Assembly: GCF_044647545.1 (NCBI RefSeq)
Contig: NZ_CP172818.1
Direction: 5' to 3' (one strand)
Length of the DNA: 64,000 nucleotides
Source: Escherichia coli
Lineage (GTDB): Bacteria; Pseudomonadota; Gammaproteobacteria; Enterobacterales; Enterobacteriaceae
Positions within the stretch are counted from its first letter, which is position 1; every line of letters begins with the position of its first letter. A program made the position numbers and the translations under genes. A model generated the notes under the pieces. It saw nothing but the letters and a program-made list of their open reading frames with translations, did not search any database and had not been told where the DNA came from. Positions 9,431-9,565 of the stretch are shown in pieces.

Positions 9431-9529
9431 TTGGATTTGCGAAACACAAGTATGCGCTAATTATCGCCTTAAATGAAAAGAGGGCCGCATCAAGGACTAA
9501 CACAGGTCCCATACCACCAAACTCCAACC

Positions 9530-9564
9530 AAAAAAAAAAAAAAAAAAAAAAAAAAAAAAAAAAA
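9530..9564. repeat. 35 nt poly(A) homopolymer (poly(T) on the speA sense strand) immediately 3' of the speA stop codon
   Basis: Uninterrupted A run read directly from the sequence, 9530-9564. Confidence 0.95.
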
Positions 9565-9565
9565 C

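What the first reader, a model, noticed from the sequence alone, without database searches (positions are those of the whole stretch)
9470..9565. 35-nt poly(A)/poly(T) tract inserted immediately 3' of speA
An uninterrupted A35 run (T35 on the speA sense strand) starts one base after the speA stop codon, preceded by about 60 nt of CA-rich sequence, upstream of the speA-speB hairpin. Homopolymers this long are essentially absent from E. coli chromosomes and unstable to slippage. It could be an artefact (for example a cDNA poly(A) or adapter remnant) or a recent insertion; if real, a T35 tract in the speAB transcript would likely affect termination and stability.
Basis: seen in the sequence. Interest (0 to 1): 0.45.

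Follow-up and report, generated by a model that had tools for sequence, protein, structure and literature searches.

The report
Assembly artefact, not a real poly(A)
The 35-base run of A next to speA is really in the sequence, but it is almost certainly junk left where an assembly built on the E. coli K-12 reference collapsed a roughly 900-base gene-bearing segment that the real strain carries, so it says nothing about biology.

Summary
A35 lies at 9530-9564, one base from the speA stop, and 54 nt of CA-rich sequence precede it. No natural comparison locus has a run longer than 10.

The tract is not biological. The window matches E. coli FDAARGOS_497 almost exactly (0 differences over 9566-24084) wherever K-12 MG1655 has the same segment. 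It degrades to low-complexity junk wherever that relative carries DNA that K-12 lacks. At speA-speB, 90 nt (9476-9565) replace an 899-nt segment that encodes a 243-aa protein. The 54 nt before the A-run are a gapped, decaying copy of the start of that segment.

The same kind of corruption occurs at 4820-5311, 24109-25265 and 56779-64000. The last block starts exactly at K-12's IS5 insertion point. All nine homopolymers of 9 nt or more lie in these non-K-12 blocks.

The window also keeps K-12's gspL'/gspC deletion junction and lacks the relative's pheV island. The RefSeq genome BS-04, which is numbered from the MG1655 origin, shows the same junk at the same loci.

Verdict: an artefact of reference-templated consensus; low interest.

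The parts
8442..9362 (-). speB (agmatinase), intact
   Evidence: ORF list. It matches speB as annotated in FDAARGOS_497 and K-12.
9391..9432 (-). Native hairpin with a T7 tail between speA and speB, identical in all three sequences aligned (window, BHUCD01, BS-04)
   Evidence: Read. The columns are invariant in the three-way alignment.
9440..9475 (.). Intact start of the non-K-12 spacer allele. This is the last faithful sequence before the junk.
   Evidence: 100% identical to FDAARGOS_497 and many other genomes (3558 genomes match this stretch at 90% or better). K-12 colinearity stops at 9439.
9476..9529 (.). CA-rich 54 nt: a gapped, decaying copy of the first ~100 nt of the true 899-nt segment
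   Evidence: Gapped alignment to L003 from 10967 scores z=4.6, with 0 of 500 shuffles as good. There is no match in 5,426 E. coli genomes, plasmids or phages beyond 9475.
9530..9564 (+). The A35 homopolymer, the end product of the collapsed consensus
   Evidence: BS-04 has an A14 at the equivalent place, directly abutting the intact right end of the true segment. A toy simulation produces a terminal poly(A) from the A-rich right end of the true segment.
9566..11542 (-). speA (arginine decarboxylase), intact
   Evidence: There are 0 differences from FDAARGOS_497 over 9566-24084.
4820..5311 (.). Same artefact in the prohibitin-family gene that K-12 lacks: a length-preserving homopolymer smear (4820-5170), then A-rich junk (5255-5311) replacing 486 nt
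   Evidence: In one search, 66 of 72 substitutions equal the local modal base, against 21 of 72 in the control.
24109..25265 (.). Same artefact over the TRAP transporter operon that K-12 lacks: 3168 nt reduced to 1157 nt, with progressively more deletions and ending in A17, A11 and A14
56779..64000 (.). Same artefact over the gene cluster that K-12 lost next to IS5 in yghO. Identity is patchy at 68-82% and the genes are fragmented.
   Evidence: The window is 100% identical to NCTC86 up to 56778, which corresponds to the K-12 base just before IS5LO. It then collapses.
38790..38791 (.). K-12-type gspL'/gspC deletion junction retained in the window. The natural strain 88-3493 has 8.0 kb (gspK to gspD) here.
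37068..37144 (+). tRNA-Phe (pheV). The integrase island that follows it in the near-clonal relative is absent, and there is a 1-nt deletion at 37144.

Best explanation
The A35 tract is an assembly or consensus artefact. The source genome was evidently built by laying noisy reads, probably long reads, from a wild E. coli onto the K-12 MG1655 chromosome as a template and calling a consensus. That wild strain is essentially clonal with FDAARGOS_497.

Where K-12 has the segment, the consensus is near perfect. Where the real strain carries DNA that K-12 lacks, the reads have nothing to register against. The column-wise consensus then blurs into local-majority bases, drops columns and ends in homopolymers.

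Between speA and speB the real strain almost certainly carries the 899-nt segment seen in FDAARGOS_497, which includes a 243-aa hypothetical gene. The pipeline shrank that segment to 90 nt: 54 nt of gapped remnant, A35 and one C.

Shown here: the dependence on K-12 structure, the decayed-copy relationship, the register-blur error signature, and the same defect in independent public assemblies. Inferred: the read technology, the exact software and the exact voting mechanism.
For: (1) Dependence on K-12. The window is colinear with MG1655 in six blocks. Inside them it is 99.8-100% identical to natural relatives, with 0 differences from FDAARGOS_497 over 9566-24084. Every indel difference from that relative sits at a K-12 structural breakpoint.

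(2) Homopolymers. All nine runs of 9 nt or more lie in the 9,366 nt (14.6%) that are not K-12-colinear.

(3) IS5 boundary. Corruption of the 56779+ block begins at the exact base where K-12 has its IS5LO insertion in yghO.

(4) K-12 structure kept. The window keeps K-12's gspL'/gspC deletion junction despite about 4% divergence from K-12 there. The genomes listed with that junction in one piece are K-12 laboratory strains or assemblies with MG1655-like size or numbering. The pheV island of the near-clonal relative is missing.

(5) Decayed copy. The 54 nt before A35 are a gapped subsequence of the start of the true segment (z=4.6). The TRAP block aligns with progressively more deletions and then poly(A).

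(6) Error signature. 66 of 72 substitutions in the blurred patch equal the modal base within +-2 nt, against 21 of 72 in the control. Bases in homopolymers of 4 nt or more number 162 in the window and 34 in the true sequence.

(7) Independent example. RefSeq BS-04 is a different strain (about 97.5% identity to the window). It has a decayed copy plus A14 at the same speA-speB spot, and A44, A18, poly-G and A23 at the TRAP spot. BS-04 and HS-01 start at the MG1655 origin with thrL at 190-255 and are only 4.51-4.52 Mb.

(8) Simulation. A toy model of left-justified noisy reads with plurality voting and a gap threshold turns the true 899 nt into 69-219 nt. The output has a faithful start, gapped decay, homopolymer smears and a terminal poly(A).
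Against: I have no reads and could not identify the source assembly, so the pipeline is inferred.

The toy model does not reproduce the CA-rich composition of the remnant or a pure A35. It also does not explain why good and bad patches alternate in the 7-kb block, or why BS-04 has a poly(A) at the left end of its TRAP block.

I did not enumerate all 374 genomes that carry the K-12-type gsp junction, so its restriction to K-12 lineages rests on the listed hits.
Confidence: 0.93

Rival explanations
1. The tract is a real, recent insertion or replacement: the strain lost the 243-aa gene and the gap was filled with untemplated or slipped A/T sequence. That would put a T35 tract in the speA-speB transcript.
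For: The tract is in the sequence as given. This spacer is variable between strains: short in K-12 and about 1 kb in roughly two thirds of complete genomes.
Against: No other of 5,426 complete genomes has the tract. Identical-looking junk sits at four other K-12 structural breakpoints in the same window, including one defined by a K-12 IS5 insertion. Flanks differ by 0 in 14.5 kb from a relative with the intact segment, which leaves no time for such decay. The error pattern is a local-mode blur, not mutation.
Confidence: 0.02
2. It is a library artefact of the kind the first reader proposed: a cDNA poly(A) tail, oligo-dT primer or adapter chimera incorporated at this point.
For: It is a long pure A run with an abrupt junction to genuine sequence.
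Against: The upstream 54 nt derive from the local accessory segment, not from an adapter or a distant transcript, and match nothing in plasmids or phages. No target-site duplication is visible (read). The multiple other junk blocks include poly-C and poly-T runs and length-preserving blur, and BS-04 has poly-G. A poly(A) chimera does not explain these.
Confidence: 0.02
3. The window was corrupted or filled in computationally by some process other than read consensus, for example a generative or imputation step applied to segments missing from a K-12 template.
For: The junk looks like degenerate model output: progressive loss of fidelity followed by repetition. The source record could not be found.
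Against: The blur is explained quantitatively by misregistered voting. Deposited RefSeq assemblies show the same thing. In either case the tract is not a real feature.
Confidence: 0.03

Closest known systems
Reference-templated (reference-guided) bacterial assemblies with collapsed strain-specific insertions, as seen in RefSeq E. coli BS-04 (NZ_CP172819.1), with HS-01 and BS-01 as likely products of the same kind of pipeline
   Same: K-12 MG1655 gene order and junctions carry another strain's SNPs. In BS-04, low-complexity poly(A) and poly(G) junk sits exactly where the strain has DNA that K-12 lacks, at the same speA-speB and hemW-yggM loci. BS-04 and HS-01 use the MG1655 origin of numbering.
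   Different: The strain background differs: the window is about 97.5% identical to BS-04 and close to 100% identical to FDAARGOS_497. The degree of collapse also differs, with A35 here and A14 in BS-04. BS-01 shows K-12-type short spacers and no junk at these two loci. I could not show that the window comes from the same project or software.
Natural speB-speA spacer alleles of E. coli
   Same: The window keeps the native hairpin and the first 36 nt of the long allele.
   Different: The natural alleles are a 137-nt K-12 spacer, or a 1012-nt spacer carrying a 243-aa gene with no Pfam family. Neither contains a long homopolymer.
Phase-variable homopolymeric tracts (contingency loci)
   Same: A homopolymer lies next to genes.
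   Different: From general knowledge, such tracts are typically about 7-20 nt, sit in promoters or reading frames, and are seen with length variation across related strains. Here the tract is 35 nt, unique to one assembly and tied to a reference breakpoint.

Membership tests
Reference-templated consensus artefact | Corrupted blocks coincide with structural differences from the template genome, and quality is high elsewhere | tested here: met
   Six K-12-colinear blocks are 99.8-100% identical to natural relatives. All junk and all nine runs of 9 nt or more lie outside them. One boundary falls at K-12's IS5 junction.
Reference-templated consensus artefact | Template-specific rearrangements are retained in a genome that is otherwise a different lineage | tested here: met
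   The K-12 gspL'/gspC junction at 38790/38791 is retained, whereas 88-3493 has 8.0 kb there. The pheV island is missing.
Reference-templated consensus artefact | The junk is derived from the true local sequence through misregistration errors | tested here: met
   Gapped-subsequence alignment gives z=4.6. The TRAP block shows progressive deletions. Local-mode substitutions number 66 of 72 against 21 of 72 in the control.
Reference-templated consensus artefact | Raw reads or a de novo assembly show the intact segment | not testable with these tools
   No reads are available and the source record was not identified.
Biological homopolymeric or phase-variable tract | A tract at the homologous position in related genomes, with length polymorphism | tested here: not met
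   None of 5,426 complete genomes covers the region. The only other case, BS-04, is itself a junk-bearing template assembly.
Retroposed or cDNA-like poly(A) insert | A 3' poly(A) following a copy of a distant transcript, flanked by target-site duplications | tested here: not met
   The upstream sequence comes from the local segment. It has no match elsewhere in E. coli, plasmids or phages. No duplication is visible at the edges.
Intrinsic terminator T-tract | A G+C-rich hairpin immediately followed by a T run on the transcribed strand | tested here: not met
   On the speA sense strand the T35 directly follows TAA-G with no preceding hairpin. The scan found no terminator-like site in 9300-9700.

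The most novel reading that the evidence does not exclude
The isolate really carries a homopolymer of about 35 nt in place of the 243-aa gene between speA and speB, for example as filler from an untemplated or poly(dA)-synthesising polymerase during repair of a deletion. On this reading the other junk blocks are real products of the same process acting on accessory DNA.
Probability: 0.015. Interest if true: 0.7.

Novelty: not a real feature. Interest (0 to 1): 0.05.

Why it matters
The tract has no biological significance, and no inference about speAB termination or transcript stability should be drawn from it.

The practical value is for data quality. This window, and at least one RefSeq "complete" E. 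coli genome (BS-04), show the signature of K-12-templated consensus: strain-specific genes are collapsed into low-complexity junk, and larger islands such as gspD-K and the pheV island are silently lost. HS-01 and BS-01 look like products of the same kind of pipeline.

Assemblies like these distort pangenome, gene presence/absence and intergenic analyses. They will also keep producing false oddities in sequence scans. Two simple screens would flag them: homopolymers of 9 nt or more clustered at breakpoints relative to MG1655, and MG1655 origin numbering combined with a genome of about 4.5 Mb.

Tried and rejected
- **Mobile or vector origin of the CA-rich 54 nt.** There was no match in plasmids or phages, and none in E. 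coli genomes beyond position 9475.
- **Terminator or promoter function.** The scan found nothing in 9300-9700.
- **Strand-specific hypermutation.** I considered deaminase-like G>A or T>C change as the cause of the A/C richness. The substitution spectrum in the corrupted 7-kb block is flat across all 12 classes, and the errors follow the local modal base.
- **Identifying the source assembly.** Exact look-up of two garbled ORF products found nothing on record.
- **Literature on the BS/HS assemblies or on this artefact class.** The searches returned nothing useful.
- **Function of the 243-aa protein the real strain should carry.** It has no Pfam family.
- **A simple left-justified plurality model.** It reproduces the homopolymer smears but not the length collapse. 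Adding a gap-vote threshold reproduces the collapse and the terminal poly(A), but not the exact composition.

Full report
**Observation**

One search shows an uninterrupted A35 at window 9530-9564. It is followed by C (9565) and TTA (9566-9568), the complement of the speA stop codon. speA is 9566-11542 (-) and speB is 8442-9362 (-).

The 54 nt before the run (9476-9529) contain A21, C19, G9 and T5. The native hairpin with its T7 tail lies at 9391-9432.

A12 words occur 33 times in the window, against 0.07 expected from shuffles. About 176 kb of natural comparison loci contain a single run of 9 nt or more, a C10.

**What the surroundings show**

The search also found A17, A11 and A14 runs at 25208-25261, again abutting the stop codon of a gene (yggM). 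That made a local explanation unlikely.

I compared the window with E. coli FDAARGOS_497 (L003). The two are almost identical over long stretches, and they differ in blocks:

| Window block | Length | FDAARGOS_497 segment | Length | Content in the relative |
|---|---|---|---|---|
| 5255-5311 | 57 nt | 6311-6796 | 486 nt | 3' part of a prohibitin-family gene |
| 9476-9565 | 90 nt | 10967-11865 | 899 nt | 243-aa hypothetical gene between speB and speA |
| 24109-25265 | 1157 nt | 26411-29578 | 3168 nt | TRAP transporter operon |

After tRNA-Phe (37068-37143) the relative's integrase island is also absent from the window.

Within the long blocks the agreement is extreme, with 0 differences over 9566-24084. 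Every indel difference lies at the edge of one of these blocks.

**The blocks are defined by K-12**

Against K-12 MG1655 (L005 and L006) the window is colinear in six blocks: 1-4575, 5371-8399, 8426-9439, 9564-24097, 25263-41087 and 41122-56778. The gaps between these blocks are exactly the corrupted blocks.

The last colinear block ends at the base before K-12's IS5LO insertion in yghO. Up to that base the window is 100% identical to natural strain NCTC86. From the next base onward identity falls to 68-82%, in alternating good and bad patches, and the genes are fragmented.

All nine homopolymers of 9 nt or more fall in the 14.6% of the window that is not K-12-colinear.

The window also keeps K-12's gspL'/gspC deletion junction at 38790/38791, although it is about 4% diverged from K-12 there. 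The natural strain 88-3493 has 8.0 kb (gspK to gspD) at that point. The genomes listed with the junction in one piece are K-12 laboratory strains or assemblies with MG1655-like size or numbering.

A biological process in a wild strain cannot know where a laboratory strain has IS5 or a deletion. A pipeline that uses MG1655 as a template does.

**Nature of the junk**

- The 54 nt before A35 align as a gapped subsequence of the first ~100 nt of the true 899-nt segment (z=4.6, 0 of 500 shuffles).
- The TRAP block aligns to the true genes with progressively more small deletions, and then gives way to poly(A).
- In the prohibitin block the corruption preserves length. Of 72 substitutions, 66 replace the true base with the modal base within +-2 nt (control 21 of 72). 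Bases in homopolymers of 4 nt or more rise from 34 to 162.

This is what column-wise voting over reads that are one or two bases out of register would give.

A toy simulation supports this reading. Noisy copies of the true segment were stacked left-justified and a plurality vote was taken. This gave homopolymer smears of up to 32 nt. Adding a gap-vote threshold shrank the 899 nt to 69-219 nt, with a faithful start, gapped decay and a terminal poly(A) derived from the A-rich right end of the segment.

The model is only qualitative. It does not reproduce the CA-rich composition or a pure A35.

**Independent example**

RefSeq BS-04 (NZ_CP172819.1) is a different strain, about 97.5% identical to the window. 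It shows a decayed copy of the same 899-nt segment ending in A14 at the same speA-speB position. It also has A44, A18, poly-G and A23 at the TRAP position.

BS-04 and its sibling HS-01 begin at the MG1655 origin of numbering, with thrL at 190-255, and are only 4.51-4.52 Mb. BS-01 has K-12-type short spacers at these two loci and shows no junk there.

**Rivals**

- A real insertion or filler is contradicted by the K-12 dependence, by the zero divergence of the flanks and by the error signature.
- A cDNA or adapter chimera is contradicted by the local origin of the upstream 54 nt, by the absence of matches in plasmids and phages and by the other blocks, which include poly-C and poly-T here and poly-G in BS-04.
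- A deaminase-type hypermutation is contradicted by a flat substitution spectrum.
- A non-read computational fill-in cannot be excluded, but it would equally make the tract unreal.

**Comparison with known things and verdict**

The closest known thing is a reference-templated assembly in which strain-specific insertions are collapsed. Three of its four defining features were tested and met. The fourth, reads showing the intact segment, cannot be tested with these tools.

Membership in phase-variable tracts, retroposed poly(A) inserts or terminator T-tracts was tested and not met.

The real isolate most likely has a spacer of about 1.0 kb carrying the 243-aa gene, which has no Pfam family. The tract is not a real feature. 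Confidence is 0.93 and interest is 0.05. Its only value is as a warning about data quality.

Noticed in passing
window 24109-25265: The TRAP transporter operon (3168 nt in FDAARGOS_497) is represented by 1157 nt of A/C-rich junk, with two islands of recognisable sequence, ending in A17, A11 and A14 against the yggM stop. BS-04 recovers fidelity at the same true position (L003 ~27760). I did not explain why.
   Followed up: partly
window 4820-5311: A prohibitin-family gene absent from K-12 is blurred by a length-preserving smear toward local-majority bases. Its last 486 nt are replaced by 57 nt of A-rich junk.
   Followed up: yes
window 56779-64000: The cluster with fatty acyl-AMP ligase, serine palmitoyltransferase, lptG/lptF-like and related genes, which K-12 lost beside IS5 in yghO, is present only as a copy with patchy 68-82% identity and fragmented ORFs. 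Good and bad patches alternate every few hundred bases for an unknown reason.
   Followed up: partly
window 38790-38791 and 37144: About 8 kb (gspK to gspD) is missing at a K-12-type junction. The integrase island that follows tRNA-Phe in the near-clonal relative is also missing. So the assembly silently omits large strain-specific regions as well as garbling small ones.
   Followed up: partly
L004 (NZ_CP172819.1, BS-04) 24584-25223; L009 and L011: RefSeq 'complete genomes' BS-04 and HS-01 start at the MG1655 origin (thrL 190-255) and are 4.51-4.52 Mb. BS-04 contains A44, A18, poly-G and A23 junk. BS-01 (4.49 Mb) belongs to the same accession series and keeps the K-12-type gsp junction. BHUCD01 and BHUCD02 (4,641,498 and 4,641,766 bp) have nearly the MG1655 length and also look K-12-templated.
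   Followed up: partly
accession series CP172816-CP172819: CP172818 is the only member of the series absent from the E. coli collection. It may be the source of this window, but that is untested.
   Followed up: no
window 8399-8440: A 4-nt deletion and a 1-nt deletion relative to FDAARGOS_497 lie in the loiP-speB spacer, at the point where K-12 has about 160 nt extra. These are small consensus errors at a breakpoint where the template has extra sequence.
   Followed up: yes
L003 10989-11720 (FDAARGOS_497): The 243-aa gene that natural strains carry between speB and speA has a lipoprotein-like N-terminus and no Pfam family. The long spacer allele that contains it matches in about two thirds of complete E. 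coli genomes (3558 of 5426 match its first 40 nt).
   Followed up: partly
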